64,000 nt of DNA from an uncultured Eubacteriales bacterium (GCA_934446675.1 CAKSEL010000010.1:19861-83860); one strand, 5' to 3'; counted from the stretch's first letter, positions 1-53,802 are shown. Program-made: numbers and translations. Notes: generated by a model not told the origin, from the letters alone.

Positions 1-660
1 ATTCTCCAACTTTTCGACGGCGAAAAAGTTGCACTCTACTAAAGAGCGTAAACAAAAGCCGTTCGCGGCTCAGACGCCGCCGCGAAAGCGTGGCTACGGG
101 AGGATTTCACTCTAAAGAGTGTAAACGCCTACCGCAACTAACTACCCCTCCGAAATTTCAAAAACTCTCGTTTTGCACTTGTCCACATTGCTGTGTTGCG
201 AAATCGCCGCGCGACAGGCGCGCGGATATGGGGTTCTGTACGAAGTCAAACCATTTTGGAAAAAGTGTTATTTTTTATATTCTCCGACAGTCAACAGGAC
301 TCGCTTTTCTGCTCAGCTCGCTTACGCGAGATGACTTTTACAAATGTTAGTTTTTTGTTTCACGGGCGCGGAGTGAAAAATTCGGTTCTGTTTCGCCGGT
401 GCAAAGTTAAATACCGCATAAATTTCGGTTTCTGCGAAACAATTTCACTCACCAAAGTTCCCCATAGCACACAGTTTCCATAGTTTACTCACGCACCTGT
501 TTACATCTGAGTCAGCCGCCTGCCTTTTGGTGGCTGACGGTACAAGCTGGCGGCAGAGAGTATCCCGTAGCCTTTTCCTTATTTAAGGGCTTACTTGTTT
601 TTCTTTGCAGCTTTCTTTTTAAAAAGAAAGCGCGTATTCTTTTTCGGCGTAGTTGTATCT
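1..660 (-). repeat. Mosaic intergenic repeat, copy 1 (minus orientation, cut by window edge)
   Basis: The reverse complement aligns module-for-module with 4682-5348. Modules: A palindrome 610-631, hairpin B allele iii 511-538, hairpin C 317-330, hairpin D 207-225, hairpin E 62-86, F-variant hairpin 8-30. Its 5' end lies just after the stop (679-681) of the minus-strand M23 gene. Confidence 0.9.
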
Positions 661-678
661 ATGTTTCACGTGAAACAT

Positions 679-2943: not shown

Positions 2944-3137
2944 CGCGGCAAATAAAATGCGCGGAGCATAAGAATACTATTATACAATTATATATTATAC
3001 ACGCTTTTTTCAAATAAATCAAGTGGCAGAATATGTACGCGGCGTGTGCTGCGTGTGACAGGGACGGACAAAGTTTGAATAAAGTTCCGGGATAATTTTA
3101 AAAGTCGTGCCCGGCACGCGTATTTTCGCGGTTATAC

Positions 3138-3166
3138 TTGACTTTGGCGCAATAATTGTGTATAAT
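3138..3166 (+). promoter_or_regulatory. Sigma-A-type promoter candidate for guaB
   Basis: TTGACT (3138-3143), a 17-nt spacer ending in TGTG, then TATAAT (3161-3166), about 40 nt upstream of the guaB ATG. Confidence 0.6.
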
Positions 3167-3187
3167 AAAATGTAAAAATATACATGA

Positions 3188-4681
<1,494 letters not shown>

Positions 4682-4699
4682 GGGTACGCAAGAATACGC

Positions 4700-4721
4700 G
4701 CTTTCTTTTTAAAAAGAAAGC
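4700..4721 (+). other. Module A: 22-bp perfect palindrome GCTTTCTTTTTAAAAAGAAAGC
   Basis: Identical palindrome at 610-631, 17386-17407, 20539-20560, 22735-22756, 27601-27622, 31915-31936, 43055-43076, 46036-46057 and 52732-52753. It is always followed by TGCAAAGAAAAC. Confidence 0.95.
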
Positions 4722-4789
4722 TGCAAAGAAAACGGTAGCCCTTAATTTAGAAAAAGGCTATGGGATACTCCCTGCCGCCAGCTTGTTCC

Positions 4790-4818
4790 GTCCGCAGTCA
4801 AACAGCAGGACTGCGGAC
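4790..4818 (+). other. Module B hairpin (allele i): GTCCGCAGTC-N9-GACTGCGGAC
   Basis: Perfect 10-bp inverted repeat. The same position in other copies carries allele ii or iii (see findings). Confidence 0.9.
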
Positions 4819-4934
4819 TAAGATTATAAATAATGTGCCGAAGTAAACTATGGAAATTCAGTACAAAGGGTTGCTTTGGAAAGTGAAATTACTTTGCACC
4901 ACCCAAACAACAAACTAACATTTGTAAAAGTCAT

Positions 4935-4948
4935 CTCGCGTAAGCGAG
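4935..4948 (+). other. Module C hairpin: CTCGC-GTAA-GCGAG (GNRA-type loop)
   Basis: 5-bp stem with a GTAA loop, flanked by conserved AAAGTCAT and CTGGGCAGAAAA. Confidence 0.85.
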
Positions 4949-5040
4949 CTGGGCAGAAAAGTGAGTCCTGTTGACTGCGTGATTATATAGAAAATAACAC
5001 TTGCGCCGAATTGGGTTTAACTTCGTACAGAACCCCATAT

Positions 5041-5059
5041 CCGCGCGCCTGTCGCGCGG
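5041..5059 (+). other. Module D hairpin (allele a): CCGCGCG-CCTGT-CGCGCGG
   Basis: 7-bp all-GC stem between conserved CCCCAT and CGATTT. Confidence 0.85.
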
Positions 5060-5179
5060 CGATTTCGCGGCACAGTTTCAGGGACATTGCGAAACGAGGA
5101 TTTTTGAGCTTTCGGGGGCGTATTTGGTTTCGGTGCGCGTTTACACTCTTTAGAGTGAAATCCTCCACGTAGCCGCGCT

Positions 5180-5204
5180 TTCGCTGCGGCGTTTGAGCGG
5201 CGAA
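5180..5204 (+). other. Module E hairpin: TTCGCTGC-GGCGTTTGA-GCGGCGAA, followed by a T-rich tract
   Basis: 8-bp stem with one U.G pair. It is followed by AAAATCTTTTGTTT, which makes it the most terminator-like hairpin inside the element. Confidence 0.8.
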
Positions 5205-5231
5205 AATCTTTTGTTTACACTCTTTAGAGCG

Positions 5232-5256
5232 CGACTTTTTCGATTCCGAAAAGTCG
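5232..5256 (+). other. Module F hairpin: CGACTTTTTCG-ATTC-CGAAAAGTCG (start of a Z unit)
   Basis: The core CTTTTCGATTCCGAAAAG recurs about 19 times in the window (by eye), always followed by GAATAGAGTTGCACATGGAAGTGAAT..CCGTTTCCGCCC or a variant. Confidence 0.9.
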
Positions 5257-5348
5257 GTGTATAGACTTGCACATAGCAGTGAATTATCTCTTTCCGCCCA
5301 AAACAGGCAACAATCACTCCCCCAATGTAGAAGAAAGGAGCAGAACAC

Positions 5349-6719: not shown

Positions 6720-6748
6720 AAATATCCGAAAGGAGCTTTTGAATAAAA

Positions 6749-12230: not shown

Positions 12231-12257
12231 GAACAGGAGGCGGTGATTTTTGACCGG

Positions 12258-12338
12258 TTTGGGCGGGAAAAGATAATTCACTGCCACTTGCAATTCTATA
12301 CACCGACTTTTCGGAATCGAAAAAGTCGCGCTCTTTAG
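12258..12338 (-). repeat. Mosaic repeat copy 3a: isolated Z unit in reverse orientation
   Basis: The reverse complement reads GCGCGACTTTTTCGATTCCGAAAAGTCGGTGTATAGAATTGCAAGTGGCAGTGAATTATCTTTTCCCGCCCAAA. Hairpin F lies at 12304-12328. Confidence 0.9.
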
Positions 12339-12394: not shown

Positions 12395-12433
12395 ACTCTG
12401 TGCATTGTTCTACAACTTTGCACAGAGTTTTTC
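12395..12433 (+). terminator. Rho-independent terminator candidate (thrC), unique sequence
   Basis: ACTCTGTGCA (12395-12404) pairs with TGCACAGAGT (12419-12428): a perfect 10-bp stem with a 14-nt loop, followed by TTTTC. It lies between repeat fragments 3a and 3b. Confidence 0.7.
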
Positions 12434-12439
12434 TATACA

Positions 12440-12995
12440 TAAAAGTAGAATTTGATCCAAGTTTCTTGCCGATAGGCAAGCTGGGCAGAAAAACGTGTCC
12501 TGTTGACTGCGTAATAACTCGAAAAAATTACTTTTTTCACCTAAAATTAAGTTTACGCAGACCGCAGCGTGACATGGCGTAAGAGATAGAGCTGAGATAA
12601 ACAAATTTTACTTAGAAACCAACCCCATCGAGCAGTGCGGAGCATCTGCGAGCGAAAATTTAAAACTTCGGAGGTGCGGGAAAGTTTTACCGACGATAGT
12701 TTGATGTGTGGAAAGGAAGCCGCGCTTTCGCTGCGGCGTTTGAGCGGCGAAAATCTTTTGCGACTTTTTCGATTCCGAAAAGTCGGAAGAATAGAGTTGC
12801 ACATGGAAGTGAATTATTCTTTTTCGCCCAAAACAAGCGTCAGTTAGATAAACACAAAGTATCTTTTCTACTTTTCGATTCCGAAAAGTCGGAGAATAGA
12901 GCTGCACATGGCAGTGAATTAAAATTTCTCGCCCAAAATAAGCAACAGCCAGCCAAGCACAAAACATCTTTCCGCCCAACCTCCCTGCTCTCTTT
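12440..12995 (+). repeat. Mosaic repeat copy 3b: 5'-truncated copy (from module C onward)
   Basis: Hairpin C variant CTTGCCGATAGGCAAG at 12465-12480, then CTGGGCAGAAAA..CCTGTTGACTG, module V, D allele b, S3 spacer, E hairpin and two Z units. Confidence 0.9.
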
Positions 12996-15818: not shown

Positions 15819-15855
15819 ATGAATTGTGGGTTATTTTGGATTGAGTTATGCTTGG

Positions 15856-15990
15856 TTTGGGTGAAAAAAGATAATTCACTGCCACTTGCAAGTCTATTCT
15901 CCAACTTTTCGATTCCGAAAAGCGGAGATACAAAGCTGCACTTTGAAGAATATTTCCCATTTCCGCCCAAACAAGCAACAATCAACCAAA
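15856..15990. repeat. Mosaic repeat copy 4: two Z units head-to-head around one F hairpin
   Basis: TTTGGGTGAAAAAAGATAATTCACTGCCACTTGCAAGTCTATTCTCCAA, then CTTTTCGATTCCGAAAAG (15905-15922), then CGGAGATACAAAGCTGCACTTTGAAGAATATTTCCCATTTCCGCCCAAA. The left arm is a reversed Z and the right arm a forward Z. Confidence 0.85.
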
Positions 15991-15996
15991 ATTACC

Positions 15997-17358: not shown

Positions 17359-18268
17359 AAACATTTTCGCCGAAGAAGAATACGCGCTTTCTTTTTAAAA
17401 AGAAAGCTGCAAAGAAAACGGGGAACGCGCTTTTCTGAAGAAAAGCTGAGCGCTCTAAAGAGTGTAAACAAAAGACTTTCGTAGCCCTTAAATAAAAATA
17501 AAGCTGTTGGCAACTCTGTGCCGCCAGCTTGTACCGTTCGCAGTCGAACAGCAGGACTGCGAACTCAAATCTAAGCAGGTGCCGAAGTAAACTATGGAAG
17601 TTGTGTACTATTGGTAACTTTGAAAAGTGAAACCCCTTTGCAACAGCGAAATAAAGTAAAAATTTCACTTCGCACCCGCGAAACAAAAACTAACATTTGT
17701 AAAAGTCATCTTGCCGTAGGCAAGCTGGGCAGAAAAATTTGTCCTGTTGACTGTTTGAATATATTAAGAGTAACATTCTTGCCAAAATAGTTTAACTTCG
17801 TACAGAACCCCATATCCGCGCGTCAGTCGCGCGGCGATTTTGCCGTAAGTTACACGGACGTACCGTAGTAGCAAGGCGGTCACGCTTGTGAGAATAATAG
17901 AGGTGAGAAAAGCTGTGTTTCGGGCAAAATCCTTCCGTCGGGGGATTGTCAAGGGGCGAGTAGTCCCTTGAACGGCTTTTCGACCACTTTTCGCCGCCGA
18001 AAAGTGCATATTTAAAGTTGCACTTTGAAGAATATAACCCGTTTCAGCTCAAAATAATCTGAAGTCAGCCACACGCAAGTGTAGTTCGCTTTCGCGGCGG
18101 CGTTTGAGCCGCGAAAATCTTTTGTCATTTATCCTCGCAGGGGACTTTTTCGATTCCGAAAAGTGAGAGAATAGAGTTGCAATTAGAAGTGAGTTATCCT
18201 TTTTAACCCAAAATAAGTAACACTCAGCCAAACAAAAAGTATTAAAAAATTTTGAAAAAAGAATATAG
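17359..18268 (+). repeat. Mosaic intergenic repeat, copy 5 (910 bp)
   Basis: A palindrome 17386-17407, a 60-bp insertion at 17421-17480, hairpin B allele ii 17536-17564, hairpin C allele ii 17710-17724, D allele a variant, S2-like spacer and two Z units. Confidence 0.93.
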
Positions 18269-20506: not shown

Positions 20507-21285
20507 GGACGCGAAGGGGAACGCGCTGAAGGTTACGCGCTTTCTTTTTAAAAAGAAAGCTGCAAAGAAAACGGTAGCCCCTAATTTAGAAAAGAATTGT
20601 TGGATACTCTCTGCCTCCGGCTTGTACCGTCAGCCACCAAAAGTCAGGCGGCTGACTTAAATGTGAACAATGGTGCCGAAGCAAGCTATGGAAATTCAGT
20701 ACAAATGGTTGCTTTGAAAAGTGAAATAATTACGCACCGACGAAACACAAAACTAATACTTGTAAAAGTCATCTTGCCGTAGGCAAGATGGGCAGAAAAA
20801 TGAGTCCTGTTGACTGTTGGAGAATATAAAAAATAACACTTTTTCCGAAATGGTTTGAGTTTGTACAAACCCCATTATCGAGCAGTGCGGAGCATCTGCG
20901 AGCGATTTTGCCGTAGGTTGTGTGGACGCACCGTAGTAACAAGTGGTCACTTTGGTAAAAGCGGTTGAGGGGTAGAAATCCGAGTTCAAGGCAAAATCCC
21001 CCACGTAGCCACGCTTTCGCGGCGGCGTTTGAGCCGCGAAAATCTTTTGTAACTTTTTCGATTCCGAAAAGTTAGAGAATAGAGTTGCACATGGCAGTGA
21101 ATAACCCGTTTCCGCTCAAACAGGCAAAAATCAGCCAAACAAAAAACATCTTTCAGCTTTTCTACTTAGAAAAGCGTCAGTATAAAGTCGCACTTTGAAA
21201 AAAGTAACCCGTTTCCGCCCAAAAAAAAGTAAGTAAAATTTAAATATTTACCCAAAATTTAAGAAGAAGAAAAGGAGAATTTTCC
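20507..21285 (+). repeat. Mosaic intergenic repeat, copy 6 (779 bp)
   Basis: A palindrome 20539-20560, hairpin B allele iii 20629-20656, C allele ii, D allele b, S2, E hairpin 21016-21040, F hairpins at 21051-21073 and 21156-21175. Confidence 0.93.
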
Positions 21286-22695: not shown

Positions 22696-23565
22696 AGAAT
22701 ACGAAGGGGTACGAAGGGGTACGCAAGAATACGCGCTTTCTTTTTAAAAAGAAAGCTGCAAAGAAAACGGTAGCCCTTAAATAAGAAAAAAGCTGTGGGA
22801 TATTCTCTGCCGCCAGCTTGTTCCGTCCGCAGTCGAACAGCAGGACTGCGGACTAAGATGTAAACAGGTGCATGAGTAAACTATGGAAACTGTGTGCTAA
22901 GGGTAGCTTTGGAAAGTGAAATTGCTCCGCACTATCTAAACATAAAACTAAAATTCAGCAAAGTCATCTCGCGTAAGCGAGCTGGGCAGAAAAATAAGTC
23001 CTGTTGACTGTGTAATAACAGTAAAAATTAACATTTGCGCACCCAAAATAAAGTTTACGCAGACCGCGGCGTGACATGACGTAAAACTTGGCATTATGTC
23101 AACCAATCCATGTTCAGATACCAACCCCATCGAGCAGTGCGGAGCATCTGCGAGCGAAGATTGCAAACTTCGGAGGCGCGGAAAAAGCTTTACCGACGAT
23201 AGTTAGATGTGTGGAGAAGAAGCCGCGCTTTCGCTGCGGCGTTTGAGCGGCGAAAATCTTTTGTCATTTATCCTCGCAGGGGACTTTTTCGATTCCGAAA
23301 AGTGAGAGAATAGAGTTGCAGGTGGAAGTGGATAATCCGTTTTCGCCAAAAATAAGTGAAAATCAGCCACACGCAAGTGTAGTTCGCTTTCGCTGCGGCG
23401 TTTGAGCGGCGAAAATCTTTTGTTTACACTCTTTAGAGCGCCCGTCTTTTCGATTCCGAAAAGCGGAGATATAGGGTTGCACATGGAAGTGAATAATCAA
23501 TGTGGCACAAAAATATTCATTCCTCCTAAACTAATCAAAAATCACCCCAAAAAGGAATAAAAAAT
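22696..23565 (+). repeat. Mosaic intergenic repeat, copy 7 (870 bp)
   Basis: Four tandem TACG decamers (22697-22736), A palindrome 22735-22756, hairpin B allele i 22825-22853, C, V, D allele b, S3 and two E+F+Z units. Confidence 0.93.
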
Positions 23566-27569: not shown

Positions 27570-28282
27570 TTTTTGTCCCGAAGGGGTACGAGGAATACGC
27601 GCTTTCTTTTTAAAAAGAAAGCTGCAAAGAAAACGGTAGCCCTTAAATAAGAATAGAATTGTGGGATACTCCCTGCCGCCAGCTTGTTCCGTCCGCAGTC
27701 AAACAGCAGGACTGCGGACTCAGATATAAATAAGGTGCCGAAGTAAACTATGGAAATTGTGTACGGACGATAACTTTGAAAAGTGAAATTGCTCCGCACC
27801 AACAAAACAAAAAACTAACATCTGTAAAAGTCATCTCGCGCAAGCGAGCTGGGCAGAAAAACGAGTCCTGTTGACTGTGAAATAGCTCAAAAAAATTACT
27901 TTTTTGCACCCAAAATAAAGTTTACGCAGACCGCAGCGTGACATGGCATAAAAATCCGGAATTATGTCAACTAAACCGTGTTTAGATACCAACCCCATCG
28001 AGCAGTGCGGAGCATCTGCGAGCGATGATAGAGAATTTCGGAGGTGCGCGGAGGCTTTACCGACAATAGTTTGATGTGTGGAAACATAGCCACGCTTTCG
28101 CGGCGGCGTTTGAGCCGCGAAAATCTTTTGTTTACACTCTTTAGAGCGCGACTTTTTCGATTCCGAAAAGTCGGAGAATAAAGCTGCAAGTGGCAGTGAA
28201 TAATCCGTTTCCTCCTAAACTTAAGAAACAATCAGCCCAAATAATCAGTACCCTGAAAAAAGTAGAGAAAGGAAGATACCCG
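27570..28282 (+). repeat. Mosaic intergenic repeat, copy 8 (713 bp)
   Basis: A palindrome 27601-27622, hairpin B allele i 27691-27719, hairpin C with GCAA loop 27835-27848, V, D allele b, S3 and one E+F+Z unit. It ends GAAAGGAAGATACCCG just before TTG 28283. Confidence 0.93.
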
Positions 28283-31895: not shown

Positions 31896-32730
31896 GGAGT
31901 ACGCAGGAGAACGCGCTTTCTTTTTAAAAAGAAAGCTGCAAAGAAAACAATAGCCCCTAATTTAGAAAAGAATTGTGGGATACTCTCTGCCGCCAGCTTG
32001 TACCGTCCGCAGTCAAACAGCAGGACTGCGGACTAAGATGTAAACAGGTGCGTGAGTAAACTATGGAAATTGTGTACTAATGGCAGCTTTGGAAAGTGAA
32101 ATAATTACGCACAAACGAAATAAATCCCAAATTTCACTTTGCACCCACGAAACAAAAAACTAAAATTCAGCAAAGTCATCTCGCGTAAGCGAGCTGGGCA
32201 GAAAAACGAGCCCTGTTGACTGCAAAATAACTTGAGAAAATTACTTTTTTGCACTCGAAATAAAGTTTACGCAGACCGTAACGTGACATGGCATAAAAGT
32301 TTGGCATTATGTCAACTAAACCGTGTTTAGATACCAACCCCATCGAGCAGTGCGGAGCATCTGCGAGCGATTTCGCCGTAGGTTACGTGGACGCACCGTA
32401 GTAACAAGTGGTCGTTTTGGTAAGGGTTTTGGAGGGGAAGAATGTGCGTTTAGGGCGAAATCCTCCACGTAGCCACGCTTTCGCGGCGGCGTTTGAGCCG
32501 CGAAAATCTTTTGTTACCTTTTCGATTCCGAAAAGTAAGCATATAAAGTCGCACTTTGAAGAAAGTAATCCGTTTCCGCCCAAACCAAGCAAAAATAAGC
32601 CAAACGTAAAACATCTTTTCACTTTTCGATTCCGAAAAGAGGAGATATAAGGTTGCAATTGGAAGTGAATGTCCCGCTTCAGCCCAAAATAATCAAAAAA
32701 AGAAAATAGAAGAAGAAAAGAGGAGTCCCC
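31896..32730 (+). repeat. Mosaic intergenic repeat, copy 9 (835 bp)
   Basis: A palindrome 31915-31936, hairpin B allele i 32005-32033, C, V, D allele b, S2, E and two Z units. It ends AAGAGGAGTCCCC just before GTG 32731. Confidence 0.93.
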
Positions 32731-37241: not shown

Positions 37242-37640
37242 AGGGAGTTCCTCTTTTCTTCTTCTTTTCTTTGATTTATGTTGGGCTTGTTTTCTTTTGT
37301 TTTGGGCGGAAATTGGTTAGTCACTGCCATGTGCAAGCGTATACCTCCGCTTTTCGGAATCGAAAAGACGGGCAAAAGATTTTCGCGGCTCAAACGCCGC
37401 CGCGAAAGCGTGGCTTTATTTTCCACACAAAATTGTATCGTCGGAAAAACATCTTCGCGCCCCCGAAGTCTGCAATCTTCGCTCGCAGACGCTCCGCGCT
37501 GCTCGATATGGGGTTCTGTACAAAGCTAAACTATTTCGGGGAAAGTGTTATTTTTTATATACTCATGCAGTCAACAGGACACACTTTTACGACCAGCTCG
37601 CTGTCGCGAGATGACTACGGCTGAATTTTACTTTTGTGTT
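37242..37640 (-). repeat. Mosaic repeat copy 10a: 5'-truncated copy in minus orientation, 3' end at the polA start
   Basis: On the reverse strand: hairpin C (GACA loop) 37597-37610, D allele b, S3, E hairpin, F hairpin 37350-37367, Z core, then SD and the polA GTG. Confidence 0.9.
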
Positions 37641-37680
37641 TGGTAAACTAAACTTGCAAGTTCGCTCTAAAACGTAATAT

Positions 37681-38156
37681 ACCGCACCAAATTGCACTCA
37701 CAAAGACGTGACACGGCAGAAAAACAGTATTATGTCAACCAAGTCATTGCTAAGAAACCAACCCCATCGAGCAGTGCGAAGCATCTGCGAGCGATTTTGC
37801 CGTAGGTTATGTGGACGCACCGTAGTAACAAGTGGTCACTTTGGAAAAAGCGTTTGAGGGGTAAAAAGTCATGTTTAGGGCAAAATCCTCCACGTAGCCA
37901 CGCTTTCGCGGCGGCGTTTGAGCCGCGAACGGCTTTTGTTTACGCTCTTTAGAGTGCAACTTTTTCGCCGTCGAAAAGTTGGAGAATAGAGCTGCACATG
38001 GAAGTGGATTATCTTTTTAGCCCCAAATAAGCAACACTCAGCCAACCGCAGAACATCTTTCAGCTTTTCGATTCCGAAAAGCGTCGGTATAAAGTTGCAC
38101 TTTGAAGAAAATTCCCCGTTTCCGCCCAAATCGACCTCAAAATATCTTCAATCTTC
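37681..38156 (+). repeat. Mosaic repeat copy 10b: 5'-truncated copy in plus orientation
   Basis: Starts in module V, then D allele b, S2, E, F-variant hairpin 37957-37981, Z, and a second F+Z. It ends at the stop codon (38157-38159) of the minus-strand HD gene. Confidence 0.9.
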
Positions 38157-38744: not shown

Positions 38745-38769
38745 TACTTCCTCCGGAATTATTATTAAT

Positions 38770-39572: not shown

Positions 39573-39597
39573 TAATAACGAAAGAGGTTAAATAATA

Positions 39598-42417: not shown

Positions 42418-42419
42418 AA

Positions 42420-43022: not shown

Positions 43023-43399
43023 GGGTACGAAGGAGTACGCGCCGAAGAATACGCGCTTTCTTTTTAAAAAGAAAGCTGCAAAGAAAACAATAGCCCTTAA
43101 TTTAGAAAAAGGCTACGGGATACTCTGTGCCGCCAGCTTGTGCCGTCAGCCACCAAAAGTCGGGCGGCTGACTCAAATCTAAGCAGGTGCGTGAGTAAAC
43201 TATGGAAATTATGTGCTGACGGTGACTTTGGAAAGTGAAACTCTTTTGTCATTTATCCTCGCAGAGGACTTTTTCGATTCCGAAAAGTGAGTGTAGAAAG
43301 CTGCAAGCAGAAGTGAATTTCCCGTTTCCGCCAAAAATTAAGATATATTTCTCAAATTTTTAAGATACATTTTTCCCAAAAAAGAAAGGAAGAGTCCCG
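43023..43399 (+). repeat. Mosaic intergenic repeat, copy 11 (377 bp, internal deletion)
   Basis: A palindrome 43055-43076, hairpin B allele iii 43145-43172, and the 5' half of P3, joined directly to the linker TCATTTATCCTCGCAGAGG plus one F+Z unit. It ends GAAAGGAAGAGTCCCG just before ATG 43400. Confidence 0.92.
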
Positions 43400-44598: not shown

Positions 44599-44616
44599 AT
44601 TTTTGAGAGGATAAAA

Positions 44617-46017: not shown

Positions 46018-46820
46018 GAGTACGCAAGAATACGCGCTTTCTTTTTAAAAAGAAAGCTGCAAAGAAAACAGTAGCCCTTAATTTAGAAAAGAATTGCGGA
46101 ATACTCTCTGCCGCCAGCTTGTACCGTTCGCAGTCGAACAGCAGGACTGCGAACTCAGATGTGAGCAGGTGCTGAAGTAAACTATGGAAATTTAGTACAA
46201 AGGGCAACTTTGGAAAGTGATATTACTTCGCACCACCCAAACATAAAACTAAAATTCAGCAAAGTCATCTCGCGTAAGCGAGTTGGGCGGAAAAACGAGT
46301 CCTGTTGACTGCATAATAACGCATAAGAATTGCATATTTGAGCCTTAAATATAGTTTACGCAGACCGCAACGTGACATGGCATAAAAGTTGAACTGTGTT
46401 AACCAATTTGAGCGTAGACACCAGCCCCATCGAGCAGTGCGGAGCATCTGCGAGCGATTTTGCCGTAGGTTACGTGGACGCACCGTAGTAACAAGTGGTC
46501 ACTTTAGAAAAATCGTTTGAGGGGTAGAAAGTCATGTTCAGGGCAAAATCCTCCACGTAGCCACGCTTTCGCTGCGGCGTTTGAGCGGCGAAAATCTTTT
46601 GCGACTTTTTCGATTCCGAAAAGTCGGTGAATAGACTTGCAAGTGACAGTGGATAATCCTTTTCCGCCTAAAATAATCAAAATTTGATTAAACATAAAAC
46701 ATCTTTCAGCTTTTCTCCGTAGAAAAGCGTCAGTATAGGGTTGCACATGGAAGTGGATTATCCGTTTCCGCCCAAACCAAGAAACAATCAGCCAAGAAAA
46801 AAGAAAGGAAGTCTCTCACC
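46018..46820 (+). repeat. Mosaic intergenic repeat, copy 12 (803 bp)
   Basis: A palindrome 46036-46057, hairpin B allele ii 46126-46154, C, V, D allele b, S2, E (U.G allele) and two Z units. It ends GAAAGGAAGTCTCTCACC just before GTG 46821. Confidence 0.93.
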
Positions 46821-48093: not shown

Positions 48094-48099
48094 TAAATA

Positions 48100-49212: not shown

Positions 49213-49820
49213 TAATTCTCGGACTTACAGGCCCGTCGGGATCGGGAAAAAGCAGCTTTGCGCACAGGGCGCTTGAAAAATATGACGGCGTGTGCGTGAC
49301 CGACGCCGATAAGATAGCAAGAAGCGTGACCGAAAAAGGGACGCCCTGCTTAAATGAGCTTTGCGGATATTTCGGAAACGGTATTTTGCTTGCAGACGGC
49401 AGCCTTGACAGAAAGGCGCTTGCAAAGACGGCGTTTTCGGACGAAAAAAAGCATGAGGTCTTGAATTCCGTAACGCATAAGTATATAATGCTTGAAATGC
49501 GAAAGGAAATCGACGCGGCGGAAAAGTCGGGCATGAAAATGTGCATAGTTGACGCACCGCTGCTGTTCGAGAGCGGATTTGATAAAGACTGCGGCGTGAC
49601 GGTCTGCGTAATTGCGGATAAAGATACAAGAATAAAGCGCATAATGCAGCGCGACGGCATAGATGAAAATTCAGCAAGGCTGAGAATTTCGGCGCAGCAT
49701 GACGACAGCTTTTATACGTCAAAGTCGGACTTTGCGCTGAGAAACGATACGTCGCAGGCAGATTTTGAAAAGCAGACAGATGATGTTTTGCAGGTTATTT
49801 TTCAAAAATTTAAAGCATAA
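49209..49820 (+). CDS. coaE: Dephospho-CoA kinase
   Basis: P-loop ILGLTGPSGSGKSS. 203 aa. 4-nt overlap with the upstream gene. Confidence 0.92.
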   Translation: MIILGLTGPSGSGKSSFAHRALEKYDGVCVTDADKIARSVTEKGTPCLNELCGYFGNGILLADGSLDRKALAKTAFSDEKKHEVLNSVTHKYIMLEMRKEIDAAEKSGMKMCIVDAPLLFESGFDKDCGVTVCVIADKDTRIKRIMQRDGIDENSARLRISAQHDDSFYTSKSDFALRNDTSQADFEKQTDDVLQVIFQKFKA

Positions 49821-49866
49821 TAACAAATACATAATGAAATATCCCCCGAAGAGAGGTATTATATAA

Positions 49867-50421
49867 GTGAAGAGAACCGCGGTTATTCTTTCGATACTCG
49901 TTCTTGCGGCGCTTGTCAGCTTTGCATGGATAAAAGTCGAGAGAATCGTGCTTGAAAATAATTATCCGCTTGAATTTAAAGAATATGTGGATAAGTATTC
50001 CGAAAAATATTCCGTGCCGGAAAATATAGTCTACGGCGTTATAAAAACCGAGAGTAATTTCAAAAGCGACGCTTTGTCAGATAAGGGCGCAGTCGGTCTT
50101 ATGCAGATAACTCCCGAAACTTTCGAGTGGCTTTGTACCAAAGAACCTTATGAAAACGCCTCTGCCGAATTGCTCTATAATCCCGAAATCAATATAAGAT
50201 ACGGTACGCTTTTCCTCAGTATGCTCTATACCGAGTTCGGTACTTGGGATAACGCTTACGCCGCTTATAATGCCGGCAGAACGCGCGTTAATAACTGGCT
50301 ATCTCAGGAACAGTATAATGCCGACGGCAGACTCGTGAATATTCCGTTCCCCGAAACCGCAAACTATGTCGTGAAAGTCGCCAAAGCCGCCGAAACGTAC
50401 AAAAATCTGTATTTTGATTAG
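49867..50421 (+). CDS. Lytic transglycosylase (SLT domain), membrane-anchored
   Basis: GVIKTESNFKSDALSDKGAVGLMQITPETF catalytic Glu-Ser context with an N-terminal TM helix. GTG start. Confidence 0.9.
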   Translation: MKRTAVILSILVLAALVSFAWIKVERIVLENNYPLEFKEYVDKYSEKYSVPENIVYGVIKTESNFKSDALSDKGAVGLMQITPETFEWLCTKEPYENASAELLYNPEINIRYGTLFLSMLYTEFGTWDNAYAAYNAGRTRVNNWLSQEQYNADGRLVNIPFPETANYVVKVAKAAETYKNLYFD

Positions 50422-51292
50422 AGTACGCAGGAATACGCGCTTTATAGGGGTACGCGCTTTTCTGAAGAAAAGCTGAGCGCTCTAAAGAGTGTAAACAAAA
50501 GACTTTCGTAGCCCTTAAATAAGAAAAGAATTGTGGGATACTCCCTGCCGCCAGCTTGTACCGTTCGCAGTCAAACAGCAGGACTGCGAACTCAGATGTA
50601 AACAGGTGCGTGAGTAAACTATGGAAATTCAGTACAAAGGGTAGCTTTTGAAAGTGAAATTACTCCGCACCTACGAAACAACAAACTAACATTTGTAAAA
50701 GTCATCTTGCCGTAGGCAAGCTGGTCGGAAAAGTTAGTCCTGTTGACTGTGAAATAACAGAAAAAGTTAACACTTGCGCACCTCAAATAAAGTTTACGCA
50801 GACCGCAACGTGACATGGCGTAAAACTTGGCATTATGTCAACCAACTTGTGTGTAGATGCCAGCCCCATCCGCGCGCCTGTCGCGCGGCGATTTTGCCGT
50901 AAGCTACACGGACGTACCATAGTAGCAAGGCGGTCGCATTTGTAAGGATAATAAAGGTGAAAAAAGCCATGTTCAGGGCAAAATCCTCCACGTAGCCACG
51001 CTTTCGCGGCGGCGTTTGAGCCGCGAAAATCTTTTGCCTTTTATCCTCGCAGGGGACTTTTTCGATTCCGAAAAGAGGGGGAATAGGGTTGCACATGGCA
51101 GTGAATTATCTTTTCTCGCCAAAATAAGCAACAGCTAGCCAAACACCAAACATCTTTCAGCTTTTCTCCGTAGAAAAGCGTCAGTACAAAGTTGCACTTT
51201 GAAGAATATTTCCCGTTTCCGCCCAAATAGGCAACAATCAACCAATCAAAAACTAAAAAATTATATAGAATCTCAGAAAGAAGATGTAAAAT
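50422..51292 (+). repeat. Mosaic intergenic repeat, copy 13 (871 bp)
   Basis: TACG decamers. The A palindrome is replaced by the insertion variant (hairpin 50456-50473, inverted 27-mer 50475-50501). Then hairpin B allele ii 50563-50591, C allele ii, V, D allele a, S2, E and two Z units. Confidence 0.93.
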
Positions 51293-52702
51293 ATGCCGGA
51301 AAAGAAGTCAAAAGGAGAAGAGCTGAAAGAAAAGCTCTTTATGAAACAGCCCGACGCATATGAAAAGCTGTCCGAAAAGGAAATTGAAAAGGCTTATAAA
51401 TATTGCGACGGATATAAGAAATTCTTAGGTGAATGTAAAACCGAAAGAGAATCCGTGGATTTTGCGGTAAAGTACCTTGAAAAGAACGGATTTGAAAAAT
51501 TTGAGTACGGTAAAAAATATCAGCCGGGCGATAAAATCTATTTTAATAATAGAGGTAAGTCCGTCTATATAATCACCGTCGGTAAACATGGTCTTGAAAA
51601 CGGACTTCATATCGCAGCCGCACACGTTGATAGCCCCAGAATTGACTTGAAACAGCACCCGCTTTATGAGGACGGCGGATTTGCTTTCTTTAAAACGCAT
51701 TATTACGGCGGAATTAAGAAATTCCAGTGGGTAACAGTGCCTCTTGCACTTCACGGAGTTGTCGTTAAGGCTGACGGCGAGTGCGTAAAGATAAGTATAG
51801 GCGAGGACGAGAGCGATCCCGTGTTCTATATAACCGATCTTCTTCCGCATCTCGGTAAGGATCAGGCAACAAAGCCTATGGGCAGCGTGTTTAACGGAGA
51901 AATGCTCAATGTTCTCTGCGGCAGCCGTCCGTATAATGATGAAAAAGTGTCGGAAAAGATTAAGCTTAATGTGCTCAATCTGCTCTATGAAAAGTACGGA
52001 ATTACAGAGGCTGACCTCGTTTCGAGCGAACTTTGCCTTGTTCCGTCGCAGAAACCGCGCGATGTCGGATTCGATAGAAGTCTTGTCGGCTCTTACGGTC
52101 ATGACGATAGGGTTTGCGCATATCCTATCATGACTGCGGCAGTAGATTGCTCAAAGCAGATTCCCGAGCATACTCAGGTTACTATCTTCGCGGATAAAGA
52201 GGAGATAGGCAGCGAGGGAAATACGGGTATGCAGTCCTTCGCGTTCGTCGATGTGCTTAATGAAATTTGTATAAACAGGGGCGAAAATCCCAGAGTTATG
52301 TTCGCAAACTCAAAGTGCCTGTCAGCAGACGTAAACGCTTGCTTTGATCCGAATTATGCAGAGGCTTATGAAACCAGAAACTCGGCTTATATTAATAAGG
52401 GTGTGTCGGTTACTAAGTTTACCGGGGCGCGCGGTAAGTCCGAAACTAATGACGCTCATGCGGAATATGTCGCATATGTCAGAAACCTCCTCGATAAGGC
52501 AGGCGTCGTGTGGCAGATGGGTGAACTCGGTAAGGTAGATCAGGGCGGCGGCGGTACTGTCGCTATGTACCTCGCTAAACTTAATATTGATGTTATTGAT
52601 GTCGGCGTCCCCGTTATTTCTATGCACGCTCCTTATGAAATCGTCTCTAAAACCGATGTCTATTCCGCTTATAAGGCTTTCGAGGCTTTCTTTAAAGACT
52701 AA
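51293..52702 (+). CDS. M18-family aminopeptidase
   Basis: AAAHVDSPRIDLK and GHDDRVCAY metal-ligand motifs. 469 aa. Confidence 0.88.
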   Translation: MPEKKSKGEELKEKLFMKQPDAYEKLSEKEIEKAYKYCDGYKKFLGECKTERESVDFAVKYLEKNGFEKFEYGKKYQPGDKIYFNNRGKSVYIITVGKHGLENGLHIAAAHVDSPRIDLKQHPLYEDGGFAFFKTHYYGGIKKFQWVTVPLALHGVVVKADGECVKISIGEDESDPVFYITDLLPHLGKDQATKPMGSVFNGEMLNVLCGSRPYNDEKVSEKIKLNVLNLLYEKYGITEADLVSSELCLVPSQKPRDVGFDRSLVGSYGHDDRVCAYPIMTAAVDCSKQIPEHTQVTIFADKEEIGSEGNTGMQSFAFVDVLNEICINRGENPRVMFANSKCLSADVNACFDPNYAEAYETRNSAYINKGVSVTKFTGARGKSETNDAHAEYVAYVRNLLDKAGVVWQMGELGKVDQGGGGTVAMYLAKLNIDVIDVGVPVISMHAPYEIVSKTDVYSAYKAFEAFFKD

Positions 52703-53802
52703 GGAATAGATAGGGATTACGAGGGATACGCGCTTTCTTTTTAAAAAGAAAGCTGCAAAGAAAACGGTAGTCCTTAATTTAGAAAAGAATTGTGGGATAC
52801 TCTCTGCCGCCAGCTTGTACCGTCCGCAGTCGAACAGCAGGACTGCGGACTAAGATAAAAACAGGTGCCAAAGCAAGCTATGGAAATTGTGTGCTGAAGG
52901 TGGCTTTGGTGAGTGAAACCGTTTCGCAACAATGAAATAAAGTAAAAATTTCACTTTGCGCCGACGAAACAGAACCGAATTTTCGCTCCGCACCGACGGA
53001 AACAATAAACTAAAATTCAGCAAAGTCATCTCGCGTAAGCGAGCTGGGTAGAAAAATGAGTCCTGTTGACTGCGAAATAACTTAAAAAAATTACTTTTTC
53101 GCACCTAAAATAAAGTTTACGCAGACCGCAGCGTGACATGGTACAAGAACTCGGCATTATGTCGACCAATTTGTGTTTAGAAACCAGCCCCATCCGCGCG
53201 CCTGTCGCGCGGCGATTTCGCGGCACAGTTTCAGGGACAGTGCGAAATGTGAGTTTTTGAAATTTCGGAGGCGTAAATGGTTTTGGTGCGCGTTTACACT
53301 CTTTAGAGTGAAATCCTCCACGTAGCCACGCTTTCGCGGCGGCGATTGAGCCGCGAACGGCTTTTGTTTACGCTCTTTAGAGTGCAACTTTTTCGCCGTC
53401 GAAAAGTTGGAGAATAGAGTTTCAAGTGGAAGTGAGTAATCCGTTCCCGCCAAAAACAGGTGAAAATCAGCCATACGCAAGTTTAGTTCGCTTTCGCGGC
53501 GGCGTTTGAGCCGCGAAAATCTTTTGTCATTTATCCTCGCAGGGGACTTTTTCGATTCCGAAAAGTGAGGAGAATAGACTTGCAAGTGGAAGTGAATTTC
53601 CCGTTTCCACCCAAAATAAGCAATACTCAGCCAAACAAAAAGTATCTTTTCGCTTTTCGATTCCGAAAAGTCGGTGAATAGAGTTGCACATGGAAGTGGA
53701 TTATCATTTTCCGCCCCAAAATAAGCAACACTCAGCCAAACCCGCAAACCTGTCCTGTGCAAAGAGAAAAAAGATATTAAAAGTTAGAAAGGAAGATCCC
53801 CG
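52703..53802 (+). repeat. Mosaic intergenic repeat, copy 14 (1100 bp, longest)
   Basis: A palindrome 52732-52753, hairpin B allele i 52822-52850, extended P3, C, V, D allele a, S1, then three Z units (F hairpins 53385-53409, 53546-53566, 53653-53670) with two E hairpins. It ends GAAAGGAAGATCCCCG just before GTG 53803. Confidence 0.93.

What the first reader, a model, noticed from the sequence alone, without database searches (positions are those of the whole stretch)
1..53802. One modular, hairpin-rich repeat family fills 14 intergenic intervals (~10 kb, ~16% of the window)
Seen: the following intervals can be aligned by eye over most of their length. They are 1-660(-), 4682-5348, 12258-12338(-) plus 12440-12995, 15856-15990, 17359-18268, 20507-21285, 22696-23565, 27570-28282, 31896-32730, 37242-37640(-) plus 37681-38156, 43023-43399, 46018-46820, 50422-51292 and 52703-53802. 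Complete copies share one module order:
- 2-4 degenerate TACG decamers (RGGGTACGMA).
- A: the palindrome GCTTTCTTTTTAAAAAGAAAGC followed by TGCAAAGAAAACGGTAGCCC.
- B: GGGATACTCYCTGCCGCCAGCTTGT followed by a 10-bp-stem hairpin.
- P3: GGTGCSGAAGTAAACTATGGAAA...CTTTGGAAAGTGAAA...GCACC.
- C: AAAGTCAT, a small hairpin, then CTGGGCAGAAAA.GAGTCCTGTTGACTG.
- V (optional): AAAGTTTACGCAGACCGCRGCGTGACATGGC...ATTATGTCAAC.
- D: CCCCAT, a hairpin, then CGATTT.
- One of three alternative ~110-nt spacers.
- E: CGCTTTCGCKGCGGCGTTTGAGCSGCGAAAATCTTTTG.
- F/Z: CTTTTCGATTCCGAAAAG followed by GAATAGAGTTGCACATGGAAGTGAAT.ATCCGTTTCCGCCCAAA, with the E/F/Z part present 1-3 times.
Known: the classical bacterial interspersed repeats (REP/BIME, ERIC, BOX, RUP, Correia) are roughly 30-300 bp. 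They are neither this long nor this dense.
Seen: the window contains no transposase, RAYT, reverse transcriptase or integrase.
Inference: this is either an undescribed non-autonomous mobile or recombining element, or a family of structured UTR RNAs. It is the strongest candidate for something new in this window.
Basis: partly seen in the sequence, partly recalled or inferred. Interest (0 to 1): 0.93.

Follow-up and report, generated by a model that had tools for sequence, protein, structure and literature searches.

The report
Stop-codon-anchored mosaic intergenic repeat family
An uncultured human-gut Clostridiales bacterium has filled many gaps between its genes, including gaps inside an old operon, with 0.3-1.1 kb hairpin-rich non-coding repeats that start at the upstream gene's stop codon, always point the same way as the genes, and keep swapping modules with each other; this is bigger and more tightly tied to genes than any known bacterial repeat family I compared it with.

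Summary
The family is absent from Rfam, phages and plasmids. Among 185,579 species genomes it occurs only in the MAG 'uncultured Clostridiales UMGS1387', which is about 95% identical to the window.

A sister species has the same dnaN-parC-GH28-dxr gene order with 38-, 15- and 16-bp spacers. The window has 910, 779 and 870 bp there, so the repeats are lineage-specific insertions into an old operon.

In 67 of 68 distinct junctions the 5' end follows a co-oriented ORF. In about 55 it starts directly at the stop codon. TAG stops are about five-fold enriched and TGA depleted (p=5e-5).

Hairpins keep pairing through compensatory changes, with a G-U excess on the sense strand. Strains with 99-100% identical flanks carry patchwork versions, which indicates frequent gene conversion.

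I found no TIR, no TSD and no transposase. Sister species carry their own unalignable families of similar layout.

Best reading: a co-transcribed, recombining, non-autonomous intergenic element. It resembles BOX/BIME elements but is a new variant. How it spreads is unresolved.

The parts
1..658 (-). Copy c1, cut by the window start. Its 5' (A) end lies 20 nt after the stop of the M23/G5 peptidase gene (679-2943, minus strand).
   Evidence: nhmmer hit to HMM positions 21-647; module scan
4682..5321 (+). Reference copy c2, between IMPDH and an unknown secreted protein. Decamers 4682-4699; A palindrome 4700-4721 plus A2 4722-4741; B 4762-4786; B hairpin 4788-4818; P3 4835-4899; C hairpin 4935-4948 and CCTGTTGACTG around 4967; D hairpin 5041-5059; E hairpin 5181-5203; X 5214-5234; F hairpin 5235-5253; Z 5259-5302. 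An A-rich tail and the RBS follow up to 5348.
12242..12335 (-). Isolated inverted F/Z unit, 11 nt after the thrC stop (TGA).
   Evidence: nhmmer HMM positions 610-703
12415..12975 (+). Partial copy (C-V-D-E-F/Z twice) lacking the A-B-P3 part. A canonical TTGACG-N17-TATAAT promoter follows at 13022-13050.
15832..15990 (.). Head-to-head pair of F/Z units around one F hairpin, next to an oriC-like DnaA-box cluster. Another strain has 840 bp of element at this junction.
17359..18238 (+). Copy c5 in the dnaN>parC junction (38 bp in sister species L028). It has W-type 5' end after a TAG stop, A plus A' modules, and two E/F/Z units.
20507..21253 (+). Copy c6 in the parC>GH28 junction (15 bp in L028).
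22696..23550 (+). Copy c7 in the GH28>dxr junction (16 bp in L028). It has four decamers, the V module at 23050-23103 and two E/F/Z units.
27570..28240 (+). Copy c8 after the melibiase-family gene (TAG stop).
31896..32730 (+). Copy c9 after the rhamnosidase gene. The array starts TAA|GGAGTACGC, and the copy has an extended P3 and the V module.
37275..37692 (-). Partial copy (P3 to Z) directly upstream of polA (minus strand).
   Evidence: nhmmer HMM positions 193-713
37692..38132 (+). Inverted partial copy (V to Z) that forms a head-to-head pair with the previous part. It lies after the yfbR stop.
   Evidence: nhmmer HMM positions 359-793
43023..43346 (+). Short copy c11: decamers, A, B and P3 joined directly to one F/Z unit.
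46018..46817 (+). Copy c12. The array starts TAG|GAGTACGC.
50422..51285 (+). Copy c13 with the A' variant (50456-50502). The orthologous copy in two other strains is 501-601 bp and has swapped modules.
52703..53743 (+). Longest copy c14, with three E/F/Z units. The orthologous junction in two other strains holds only about 290 bp.

Best explanation
These are copies of one species-specific family of long (0.3-1.1 kb), non-coding, non-autonomous composite repeats.

Shown:
- They were added to intergenic spacers during the recent history of this lineage, including spacers of 15-38 bp inside an ancestral dnaN-parC-GH28-dxr operon.
- Each complete copy starts at, or within a few bases of, the stop codon of a co-oriented gene. 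It begins with a variable array of RRGRRTACGM decamers and the invariant A palindrome, and runs to just before the next gene's ribosome-binding site.
- Copies exchange segments so often that nearly identical strains carry different module combinations at one junction. The number of decamers and of E/F/Z units also changes.

Inferred:
- Essential genes (parC, dxr) now lie behind 0.8-0.9 kb of repeat with no convincing promoter. The copies must therefore be read through as part of the operon mRNA, on the sense strand.
- Their hairpins are kept at the RNA level, and only the sense orientation is tolerated, or only that orientation is produced.
- The 'modules' are conserved anchor motifs (A, B, P3a/b, C, E, F) separated by alternative alleles that gene conversion between copies shuffles.

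Committed but least certain: new junctions are colonised by copying an existing copy into a stop-codon/Shine-Dalgarno junction. This could be templated repair using the short purine-rich homology at both ends, or an unidentified trans-acting enzyme. It is not classical cut-and-paste transposition. I take the element to be selfish or near-neutral, not a host regulatory device, although individual copies may have been co-opted.
For: Repeat reality and module order.

Lineage-specific insertion. Sister species L028 has the same gene order with spacers of 38, 15 and 16 bp. L032 has 60, 62 and 145 bp, and L029 has 941, 121 and 115 bp. The window has 910, 779 and 870 bp. The DnaN and ParC C-termini are unchanged.

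Host range. The A motif occurs in one species of 185,579. 54 of 66 metagenome loci are the same species and the rest are chance hits in low-GC DNA.

Orientation. Every A-containing copy follows a co-oriented gene, 23:0 in co-directional junctions.

Stop-codon anchoring. 67 of 68 distinct junctions have a sense ORF ending 9-174 nt before the A palindrome. In 46 the first decamer starts right at the stop, and in 9 the alternative W module does. This also holds at convergent junctions.

Stop codon usage. Element-adjacent genes: TAA 23, TAG 9, TGA 5. Other genes: TAA 64, TAG 6, TGA 56 (p=5e-5). In the window all five TAG stops among the + strand genes listed abut an element.

Structure. On the 148-column 5' alignment, 99% of cells are paired, against 35-51% in slid controls. 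47 cells show double changes, against 22 +/- 2.7 in shuffles. Compensatory pairs occur in the B, C and E hairpins, and there are 89 G-U against 22 A-C cells.

Gene conversion. Orthologous copies are not each other's closest relatives, and identity is star-like at about 80%. Strains with 99.4-100% identical flanks show blocks of 98-100% identity next to blocks of 75-85%, with V, X, Y and F'/Z units and decamers gained or lost. Sizes at one junction are 159 vs 840, 290 vs 1047 and 397 vs 870 bp.

No transposon hallmarks. No TIR in canonical copies. No copy-specific TSD (p=0.47). No transposase, RT or integrase in 40 window ORFs. No multi-copy ORFs in about 300 kb of one assembly.

No strong promoters or terminators inside the copies. 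A native canonical promoter persists downstream of copy c3.
Against: - No transcription data, so read-through and RNA folding are inferred.
- Whole-copy folding is only modestly better than shuffles, and equally so on both strands (z about -3).
- The G-U excess counts sequences, not independent events. It would also fit a strand-specific single-stranded DNA intermediate.
- The patchwork between strains comes from short-read metagenome assemblies, which could in principle mis-thread paralogous repeats.
- No empty site exists within the species, so no fresh insertion with clean boundaries was seen, and the 3' boundary is diffuse.
- The templated-insertion idea has no direct support. An HUH-type or other enzyme encoded elsewhere in the genome is not excluded, because only about 0.7 Mb of partly redundant sequence of the species was seen.
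- About 41 nt around the A palindrome and 38 nt of E are invariant while the rest is about 80% identical. That hints at sequence-specific recognition by a protein, which a purely neutral model does not explain.
- Weak promoter-like sites exist in modules C (TTGACT-N18-TAACAT) and V (GTGACA-N16-CATTAT), so internal transcription starts are not excluded.
Confidence: 0.55

Rival explanations
1. The family is a host-selected set of cis-acting RNA modules, in 3'-UTR or intercistronic position. The post-stop decamers, the A hairpin and the following hairpins would protect or process the upstream mRNA and uncouple neighbouring cistrons. The E/F/Z units would tune expression of the downstream gene. 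Similarity between copies would be kept by selection plus gene conversion, not by selfish spread.
For: - Strict sense orientation and start at the stop codon, also at convergent junctions where spacing is not constrained.
- Anchor motifs are invariant while the sequence between them drifts.
- Compensatory hairpin changes with a G-U bias on the sense strand.
- Sister species keep a similar layout with unalignable sequence: a short tandem array after the stop, a T-run/A-run hairpin, CAAAA, a GC hairpin, and tandem units before the next gene.
- Such elements persist in an otherwise compact genome with many 2-30 bp spacers.
Against: - The same operon works with 15-38 bp spacers in a sister species, so the modules are not needed for these genes.
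- Size at one junction varies three- to five-fold between strains, and modules are optional.
- Occupancy of junctions differs between species.
- No known RNA family matches.
- There is no expression evidence.
Confidence: 0.25
2. The family is a non-autonomous element moved as single-stranded DNA by an HUH enzyme encoded elsewhere in the genome (IS200/IS605-type TnpA or RAYT, or IS91-type rolling circle). Such elements insert 3' of a short target in one orientation, without inverted repeats or duplications, and are recognised through subterminal hairpins. Here the target would overlap TAA/TAG stop codons.
For: - No TIR and no TSD.
- Strictly oriented insertion directly 3' of a short sequence, with TAG/TAA enriched and TGA depleted.
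- Conserved hairpins of one stem type (CTTTYC...GRAAAG) near the 5' end (A) and repeated near the 3' end (F, F').
- The strand-specific G-T/G-U bias would fit a single-strand intermediate.
- The variable 3' end resembles one-ended rolling-circle transposition.
Against: - No HUH gene in the window.
- No multi-copy ORF in about 300 kb of one assembly.
- Orientation follows the local gene and not a replichore: the copy upstream of polA is on the minus strand inside a plus-strand region.
- Decamer arrays of variable length sit between the stop and the first hairpin, so there is no fixed distance from cleavage site to hairpin.
- TGA|decamer junctions exist.
- Known PATEs and REPs are 30-400 bp.
Confidence: 0.15
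3. The conserved palindromes (A, 22 bp; F, 18 bp) and other invariant motifs act at the DNA level. They would be arrays of binding sites for a global regulator, a nucleoid protein or a site-specific recombinase, and the rest of the element would be spacer.
For: - A is a perfect 22-bp palindrome, identical in all 10 A-type copies of the window while the elements are about 80% identical overall.
- F-type hairpins keep the stem and vary the loop.
- Head-to-head pairs centred on F occur at 15832-15990, 12242-12335 and in several loci of other strains.
- Copies are much denser in this origin-proximal window: about 1 per 5 kb, against roughly 1 per 30 kb on the contigs of assembly ERZ835980.
Against: - DNA-binding sites would not need the strict sense orientation, the stop-codon anchoring, or the G-U-specific pairing of the B, P3, V and E hairpins.
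- No recombinase lies nearby.
Confidence: 0.07
4. The long repeats are clusters of several ordinary small MITEs (DDE-transposase dependent, with TIR and TSD) that inserted next to and into each other, which gives an apparent modular element.
For: - Modules are optional and some occur in both orientations: X and the A' variant, which is an inverted copy of the E-X-F junction (z=7.4 in copy c13).
- Small hairpin cassettes X and Y come and go between strains.
- Pneumococcal BOX, RUP and SPRITE elements also cluster and nest (PMC3049150).
Against: - Module order is fixed over about 140 clusters, which random nesting would not give.
- Canonical copies have no TIR, and there is no TSD.
- Modules do not occur alone elsewhere in the window, apart from F/Z units.
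- No IS was seen.
Confidence: 0.05
5. The repeats, or their mosaic structure, are artefacts of short-read metagenome assembly.
For: The MAG and most related contigs are SPAdes assemblies at 5-9x coverage. Many contigs end inside the A module.
Against: - An independent MEGAHIT k141 contig equals the window at 99.994% over 16.4 kb, including four copies.
- The same junctions are occupied in at least three strains from different samples.
- Copies differ by about 20%, which is enough to be resolved.
- Hairpin covariation is not something an assembler creates.
Confidence: 0.02

Closest known systems
BOX elements of Streptococcus pneumoniae and S. suis (boxA-(boxB)n-boxC composite repeats)
   Same: Both are modular composite intergenic repeats with conserved end modules and a variable number of internal tandem modules. 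Length varies between strains at one locus. Both are predicted to form hairpins when transcribed and are co-transcribed with neighbouring genes. No dedicated transposase sits inside either (PMC3049150).
   Different: - Per Croucher et al. (PMC3049150), small interspersed repeats such as BOX are typically under 200 bp, and their three pneumococcal repeat families are over-represented between convergently transcribed genes.
- From that paper as I recall it, boxA and boxC act as TIR-like ends, and the pneumococcal repeats are under-represented between co-transcribed genes.
- The family here is 0.3-1.1 kb with about 10 ordered modules and has no TIR.
- It lies mainly between co-directional genes, including inside an old operon.
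- It starts at the stop codon and is sense-only.
- No sequence similarity to BOX is known.
REP/BIME elements with RAYT (TnpA-REP) of Proteobacteria
   Same: Both consist of extragenic hairpins of one stem type repeated in mosaic arrays, often just after genes, and both lack TIR and TSD. Some BIMEs inserted in operons act as transcriptional attenuators (PMC3049150); from my own knowledge REPs can also stabilise mRNA.
   Different: REPs are 20-40 nt and BIMEs are usually under 300 bp, with alternating orientation (my knowledge; PMC2817692 abstract). Here long unique modules (B, P3, C, V, D, E, Z) dominate and orientation is uniform. No RAYT was seen, and the host is a Clostridiales bacterium.
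MIRUs of Mycobacterium tuberculosis (my knowledge: Supply et al. 1997)
   Same: Both sit in intercistronic spacers of operons, are oriented with the genes, and abut the stop and start codons of the flanking genes.
   Different: MIRUs are 40-100 bp tandem units that carry small ORFs overlapping the neighbouring genes. Here there are about 800 bp of non-coding hairpins with no conserved ORF.
IS200/IS605-derived PATEs and other HUH-mobilised elements
   Same: Both lack TIR and TSD, insert in one orientation 3' of a short target, and have subterminal hairpins.
   Different: No TnpA was found. Orientation follows the gene and not the replication fork. Variable decamer arrays lie between the target and the first hairpin. 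The elements here are several times larger.
Integron attC sites / Vibrio VCR arrays
   Same: Both are structured, strand-specific repeats that begin at or within the stop codon of the preceding gene and separate co-oriented genes.
   Different: attC sites are 57-141 bp with R/L core sites, and the cassettes between them are mobile accessory genes next to an intI gene. Here the genes are essential and syntenic with species that lack the repeats, and no integrase is present.

Membership tests
Classical MITE (DDE-transposase dependent) | Terminal inverted repeats | tested here: not met
   Local alignment of the first 110 nt against the reverse complement of the rest, with 200 shuffles. Eight of nine copies are not significant (z from -1.0 to 2.5). 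Only the A' variant in c13 gives z=7.4.
Classical MITE (DDE-transposase dependent) | Copy-specific target-site duplication | tested here: not met
   The longest common substring between each copy's post-stop 17 nt and its pre-start 26 nt is no larger than in permuted pairings (observed 50, mean 49.4, p=0.47).
Classical MITE (DDE-transposase dependent) | Parent IS with the same ends in the genome | tested here: inconclusive
   No transposase in 40 window ORFs and no multi-copy ORF in about 300 kb of one assembly. The complete genome was not available.
REP/BIME | 20-40 nt imperfect palindromes with a conserved 5' head, hundreds of copies, in alternating orientation | tested here: not met
   Units are 300-1100 bp with fixed module order and uniform orientation. 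F-type hairpins are REP-like in size, but only some form head-to-head pairs.
REP/BIME | Cognate RAYT gene flanked by REPs | not testable with these tools
   This needs the whole genome. None is present in the window.
BOX elements | boxA and boxC end modules with tandem boxB between them; streptococcal hosts | tested here: not met
   Different host. No TIR-like ends. Ten ordered modules instead of three. The resemblance is in organisation only.
IS200/IS605-type PATE | No TIR, no TSD, oriented insertion 3' of a conserved short target | tested here: inconclusive
   No TIR or TSD. Insertion lies directly after stop codons with a TAR bias, but TGA junctions exist and a decamer array of variable length intervenes.
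IS200/IS605-type PATE | Orientation set by the replication fork (top strand on the lagging-strand template) | tested here: inconclusive
   Orientation follows the adjacent gene in all 23 co-directional junctions and at polA on the minus strand. Replichore positions of most loci are unknown, and GC skew follows the gene strand.
Group II intron (ORF-less) or group I intron/IStron | Conserved ribozyme core (domain V / P3-P9) detectable by Rfam models | tested here: not met
   No Rfam hit at gathering threshold on the whole window. Only noise with E of 1.2 or higher on two full copies.
Integron attC array | 57-141 bp sites with R''-L''/L'-R' cores, an intI gene, and mobile cassettes | tested here: not met
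   Length is 0.3-1.1 kb. The genes between copies are dnaN, parC, dxr, secA and polA, in an order conserved with repeat-free relatives. There is no integrase.
Known cis-regulatory RNA families (riboswitches, leaders, T-box, large ncRNAs such as OLE/ROOL/GOLLD/HEARO) | Match to a curated covariance model | tested here: not met
Protein-coding repeat | Conserved ORF across copies | tested here: not met
   ORFs of 100 aa or more inside copies lie on the antisense strand over different modules in different copies. Alignment gaps are frequent and not in threes. The ATG in P3a is followed by early stops in c5 and c7 (read).

The most novel reading that the evidence does not exclude
This is a new class of bacterial selfish element. 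It lives inside operon transcripts, and a genus-level clade of uncultured gut Clostridiales carries species-specific, fast-evolving families of kilobase-scale structured repeats. New copies are placed precisely at stop codons and bring or favour a TAG/TAA stop, in the sense orientation, without TIR, TSD or a linked transposase. Placement would be by templated, recombination-based copying or by a so far unknown stop-codon- or transcript-guided enzyme. The families then evolve in concert by gene conversion.
Probability: 0.3. Interest if true: 0.85.

Novelty: new variant of a known kind. Interest (0 to 1): 0.72.

Why it matters
If the reading holds, bacterial operons can tolerate kilobase-scale non-coding insertions between essential cistrons. 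It would also mean a repeat family can be tied to the ends of genes with single-base precision, which none of the repeat classes compared here (REP/BIME, BOX, ERIC, Correia, MIRU, PATE) shows.

The family offers a natural system for three questions:
- How is read-through, polarity and translation of downstream cistrons maintained across long structured spacers?
- How fast does gene conversion homogenise and reshuffle dispersed repeats?
- What places DNA exactly at stop codons?

There is also a practical point. These repeats break short-read assemblies: the closest ParC relatives sit on 2-13 kb contigs, and many contigs end in the A module. That helps explain why this gut lineage is known only from fragmented MAGs.

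Tried and rejected
- Terminal inverted repeats: none in canonical copies. My by-eye idea that A is an inverted F failed the shuffle test. Only the A' variant is a true inverted copy.
- Target-site duplication of the Shine-Dalgarno sequence: the similarity between post-stop and pre-start sequence is generic purine richness, not copy-specific (p=0.47).
- The idea that the element also supplies the downstream GTG start: 8 of 13 by eye in the window, but not significant with automated starts on the larger set (p=0.39).
- Sequence homology with sister-species families: BLAST, nhmmer and a covariance model of the 5' 144 positions all fail. The shared 'grammar' is by eye only.
- Internal sigma-70 promoters or intrinsic terminators: not enriched. 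The C and V modules have only weak matches.
- Discrimination of strand by folding energy: both strands give z of about -3.
- Rho-avoidance by C-poor composition: sense-strand composition is similar to that of coding strands.
- Phage or plasmid origin: no match. Five viral hits to a 20-mer are one phage coding sequence, so they are chance.
- An empty site within the species, which would define the boundaries: none found.
- Small conserved ORF in P3: stops differ between copies.
- Literature: four searches found no description of this organism or family.

Full report

Yes. A self-BLAST of the window finds 16 repeat-covered intervals that together make 9,716 bp, or 15.2% of the window.

The order is decamers, A, B, P3, C, optional V, D, spacer, E, then F/Z one to three times. 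A MAFFT alignment of 11 copies aligns over nearly the whole length, with blocks of complete identity separated by alternative 'alleles'.

The minus-strand pieces are also real: 1-658, 12242-12335 and 37275-37692.

Some details need correcting:
- 15832-15990 is a head-to-head pair of F/Z units.
- 37275-38132 is a head-to-head pair of partial copies.
- 43018-43346 is an internally deleted copy.
- Two copies carry a variant 5' module, A' (17429-17475 and 50456-50502). It is an inverted copy of the E-X-F junction.

An independent ENA contig equals window 35400-51792 at 99.994% through four copies. The repeats are therefore not an assembly artefact.

**2. Whose genome, and how widespread is the family?**

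The genes are ordinary Firmicutes housekeeping and glycan-use genes: IMPDH, thrC, dnaN, parC-like topoisomerase IV subunit A, dxr, polA, secA, a G5+M23 peptidase, a DHHW protein, GH28 and a rhamnosidase. None of the 40 ORFs scanned is a transposase, RAYT, reverse transcriptase or integrase.

A scan of one genome for each of 185,579 species with the 29-nt A motif hits one species only, the human-gut MAG 'uncultured Clostridiales bacterium UMGS1387'. It gives 27 matches, many at contig ends. The window is syntenic with that MAG. Aligned blocks are mostly 92-97% identical, and one block is 86%.

A metagenome scan with the 22-nt palindrome gives 66 loci. Of these, 54 carry the family and belong to the same species in a few gut assemblies. 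Twelve do not carry it: nine are low-GC and three have ordinary GC, so all are taken as chance matches.

Nothing matches in viral contigs, phages or plasmids. Rfam gives no hit at gathering level on the window and only noise on two full copies. Four literature searches found no description.

Over all sequence of the species in hand, 138 clusters cover 61 kb of 685 kb. The window is a hot spot. It has 10 A-type copies in 54 kb, against roughly one per 30 kb on the contigs of assembly ERZ835980. That second figure is my rough sum of the contig lengths listed.

**3. They are insertions into an old operon**

Homologues of the ParC-like protein led to sister species.
- The contig from JGI sample 3300029305 (ParC 77% identical) has the same order DAGK-Fur-DHHW-dnaN-parC-GH28-dxr. 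Its spacers are 38, 15 and 16 bp between dnaN, parC, GH28 and dxr.
- GCA_965331235.1 has 60, 62 and 145 bp.
- GCA_965302325.1 has 941, 121 and 115 bp.
- The window has 910, 779 and 870 bp.

The C-termini of DnaN (MPVR[AS]R*) and ParC end at the same residue as in the compact relative. The repeat has therefore been added cleanly between the stop codon and the ribosome-binding site.

Two of the downstream genes (parC, dxr) are normally essential, which is established knowledge. No convincing sigma-70 promoter lies in the 3' parts of these copies. I therefore infer that the copies are transcribed through as part of the operon mRNA. Where a junction lies between operons, a native canonical promoter is still present downstream of the copy (TTGACG-N17-TATAAT, 13022-13050).

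**4. Anatomy relative to genes**

Every copy that has the A end follows a gene on the same strand. In co-directional junctions the count is 23 sense to 0 antisense.

I examined 68 distinct A-type junctions from all strains.
- 67 have a sense ORF of at least 80 codons ending 9-174 nt (median about 32) before the A palindrome.
- In 46 of them the first decamer begins directly after the stop, for example TAA|GGAGTACGC, TAG|GGGTACG and TGA|GGGGTACG.
- In 9 an alternative module (TAG|WTACATTYTCGCC) does so.
- This also holds at convergent junctions, where spacing is not constrained.

Stop-codon usage is skewed (p=5e-5):

| Genes | TAA | TAG | TGA |
|---|---|---|---|
| Followed by the element | 23 | 9 | 5 |
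| Other genes | 64 | 6 | 56 |

In the window all five TAG stops of the + strand genes listed abut an element, and none of the element-free short junctions there has TAG. The dnaN stop is TAA in two sister species and TAG here. So the stop codon is either part of what gets copied or part of the target.

The 3' side is less sharp. After the last GTTTCCGCCCAAAA motif come some 30-160 nt (commonly about 45-65) of variable A-rich sequence and the RBS.

**5. Structure**

On a 34-sequence alignment of the 5' 148 columns, 99% of cells in the predicted helices pair, against 35-51% when partners are slid. 47 cells show changes on both sides, against 22 +/- 2.7 in shuffles.

The B hairpin exists in three mutually compensated alleles. 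The E hairpin switches G-C to U-G and C-G to A-U. The C hairpin switches C-G to U-A.

Across helices there are 89 G-U cells against 22 A-C cells. The pairing therefore works on the sense strand only. This fits RNA, or a strand-specific single-stranded DNA intermediate.

These counts are of sequences, not independent events. The A palindrome's invariance outside the window is partly by ascertainment, because A was used as the search pattern. Whole-copy folding energies do not distinguish the strands (z about -3 for both).

**6. Dynamics**

Orthologous copies in the window and the MAG sit in the same junctions but are only 84-88% identical, while most of the genes are 92-97% identical. They are no closer to each other than to paralogues. 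The family is star-like at about 80% identity.

Between strains whose flanking genes are 99.4-100% identical, the element at one junction is a patchwork. Blocks of 98-100% identity lie next to blocks of 75-85%. The B-hairpin allele is exchanged, V, X, Y and F'/Z units are present or absent, and there are two to seven decamers.

Sizes at one junction differ three- to five-fold between strains: 159 vs 840, 290 vs 1047 and 397 vs 870 bp.

The simplest explanation is frequent gene conversion and unequal recombination among copies, seeded by the invariant anchor motifs. This also explains why the family looks 'modular'. The caveat is that most of these contigs are short-read assemblies. No empty site exists within the species.

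**7. How do new copies arise?**

Hallmarks of classical transposons are absent.
- No TIR in canonical copies.
- No copy-specific TSD.
- No transposase in the window.
- No multi-copy ORFs in about 300 kb of one assembly.

Two mechanisms fit what is seen, namely oriented placement right after stops, a TAG/TAA bias, and no TIR or TSD.

(a) Templated copying of an existing copy into a 'stop codon + Shine-Dalgarno' junction. This would use the short purine-rich similarity that every copy has at both ends: decamers such as TAAGGAGTAC at the 5' end and AAAGGAAG at the 3' end.

(b) An HUH-type single-strand transposase encoded elsewhere.

I favour (a) weakly, because recombination between copies is demonstrably very active and no enzyme is in sight. 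Neither mechanism is shown.

Sister species argue for mobility over deep time.
- GCA_965335315.1 has its own family covering 25% of a 6.75-kb contig, with three to four 100-bp tandem units upstream of parC.
- GCA_965302325.1 and GCA_965331235.1 share an 87-bp piece of another family, but in different junctions.

These families cannot be aligned with the window family by BLAST, nhmmer or a covariance model. By eye they share a layout: a short tandem array after the stop, a T-run/A-run hairpin, CAAAA, a GC-rich hairpin, and tandem units before the next gene. That resemblance is a lead, not a result.

**8. Comparison with known systems**

The closest in organisation are pneumococcal BOX elements. 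They are modular, have a variable module number between strains, and are co-transcribed (PMC3049150). BIMEs, MIRUs, PATEs and attC arrays each share one or two traits.

The family fails the defining tests of MITEs (TIR, TSD), group I/II introns (Rfam), integron cassettes (size, mobile genes, integrase) and REP/BIME (unit size, alternating orientation). It has no known sequence relative.

It differs from all of them in several ways:
- size, at 0.3-1.1 kb with about ten ordered modules;
- strict sense orientation;
- single-base anchoring at stop codons with a TAG bias;
- occupation of intra-operon junctions;
- species-specific replacement across a clade.

**9. Verdict**

I class it as a new variant of the known kind 'interspersed mosaic intergenic repeats'. 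There is a substantial chance (about 0.3) that it represents a new kind of element with a stop-codon-directed, transposase-independent way of spreading.

Interest is high (0.72). The sequence-level findings (insertion into an operon, stop-codon anchoring, hairpin covariation, patchwork between strains) are well supported. Transcription of the copies and the mechanism of spread are inferred, and the mechanism needs long-read genomes and transcript mapping.

Noticed in passing
window 15997-16156 and 16175-16215: A cluster of six to eight DnaA-box-like motifs on one strand (TTTTCCACA, TTTCCCACA, TTATACACA, TTTTCCATA, TTGTCCACA, GTTTCCACA, plus AATCCACA twice), followed by an AT-rich stretch directly upstream of dnaN. 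This is a likely oriC without an adjacent dnaA. The mechanical ORF 15819-16265 (no Pfam match) is probably spurious. Sister species have DnaA boxes in the same spacer. GC skew does not switch here; it follows the gene strand.
   Followed up: partly
window, stop codons at 17358, 27569, 43022, 46017, 50421: All five TAG stops of the + strand genes listed lie directly in front of a repeat copy. The element-free short junctions use only TAA or TGA. The dnaN stop is TAA in two sister species and TAG here.
   Followed up: yes
L031 (GCA_965335315.1) 1-630, 2863-3700, 6190-6750; L029 (GCA_965302325.1) 6502-6749 and 12444-12692; L032 (GCA_965331235.1) 1-700: Sister species (ParC 82-85% identical) carry their own long intergenic repeat families. 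These cannot be aligned with the window family but have a similar layout. L031 has three to four tandem 100-bp units before parC and is 25% repeat-covered. L029 7128-7212 matches L032 515-597 at 82%, in a different junction.
   Followed up: partly
L028 (JGI 3300029305) 8084-8850, especially 8462-8616 minus strand: The 'repeat-free' relative has a 765-bp DHHW>dnaN spacer with hairpin+CAAAAG modules on both strands. It holds the best covariance-model hit outside the species (E about 0.0045, rough). This could be a low-copy relative or the ancestral home of the family.
   Followed up: no
window 13022-13050: A canonical sigma-70 promoter (TTGACG-N17-TATAAT) lies between the repeat copy 12415-12975 and the DAGK gene. 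Native promoters therefore persist downstream of copies at inter-operon junctions.
   Followed up: partly
window 1-54000 versus 54000-64000, and contigs of assembly ERZ835980: Copy density is very uneven. There are 10 A-type copies in the first 54 kb and none in the last 10 kb. On the contigs of one metagenome assembly there is roughly one per 30 kb, and a 263-kb contig has a single match. The origin-proximal region looks like a hot spot.
   Followed up: no
one search hit table (P0001-P0007): The closest ParC relatives (80-99% identical) all sit on contigs of 2.4-12.7 kb, while several more distant ones sit on 65-150 kb contigs. This suggests that repeat-bearing species of this clade assemble poorly from short reads.
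   Followed up: no
L017 about 3230-3570 (UMGS1387 contig URVJ01000017): This is the only A-type junction without an upstream ORF. The copy follows a GC-rich hairpin with a T-run (CCCGTACTTTTTGTACGGGTTTTTTTT), possibly the terminator of a non-coding RNA gene.
   Followed up: no
L028 999-1230: A tandem duplication of a 116-bp unit (93% identical) lies in an intergenic spacer of the repeat-poor relative.
   Followed up: no
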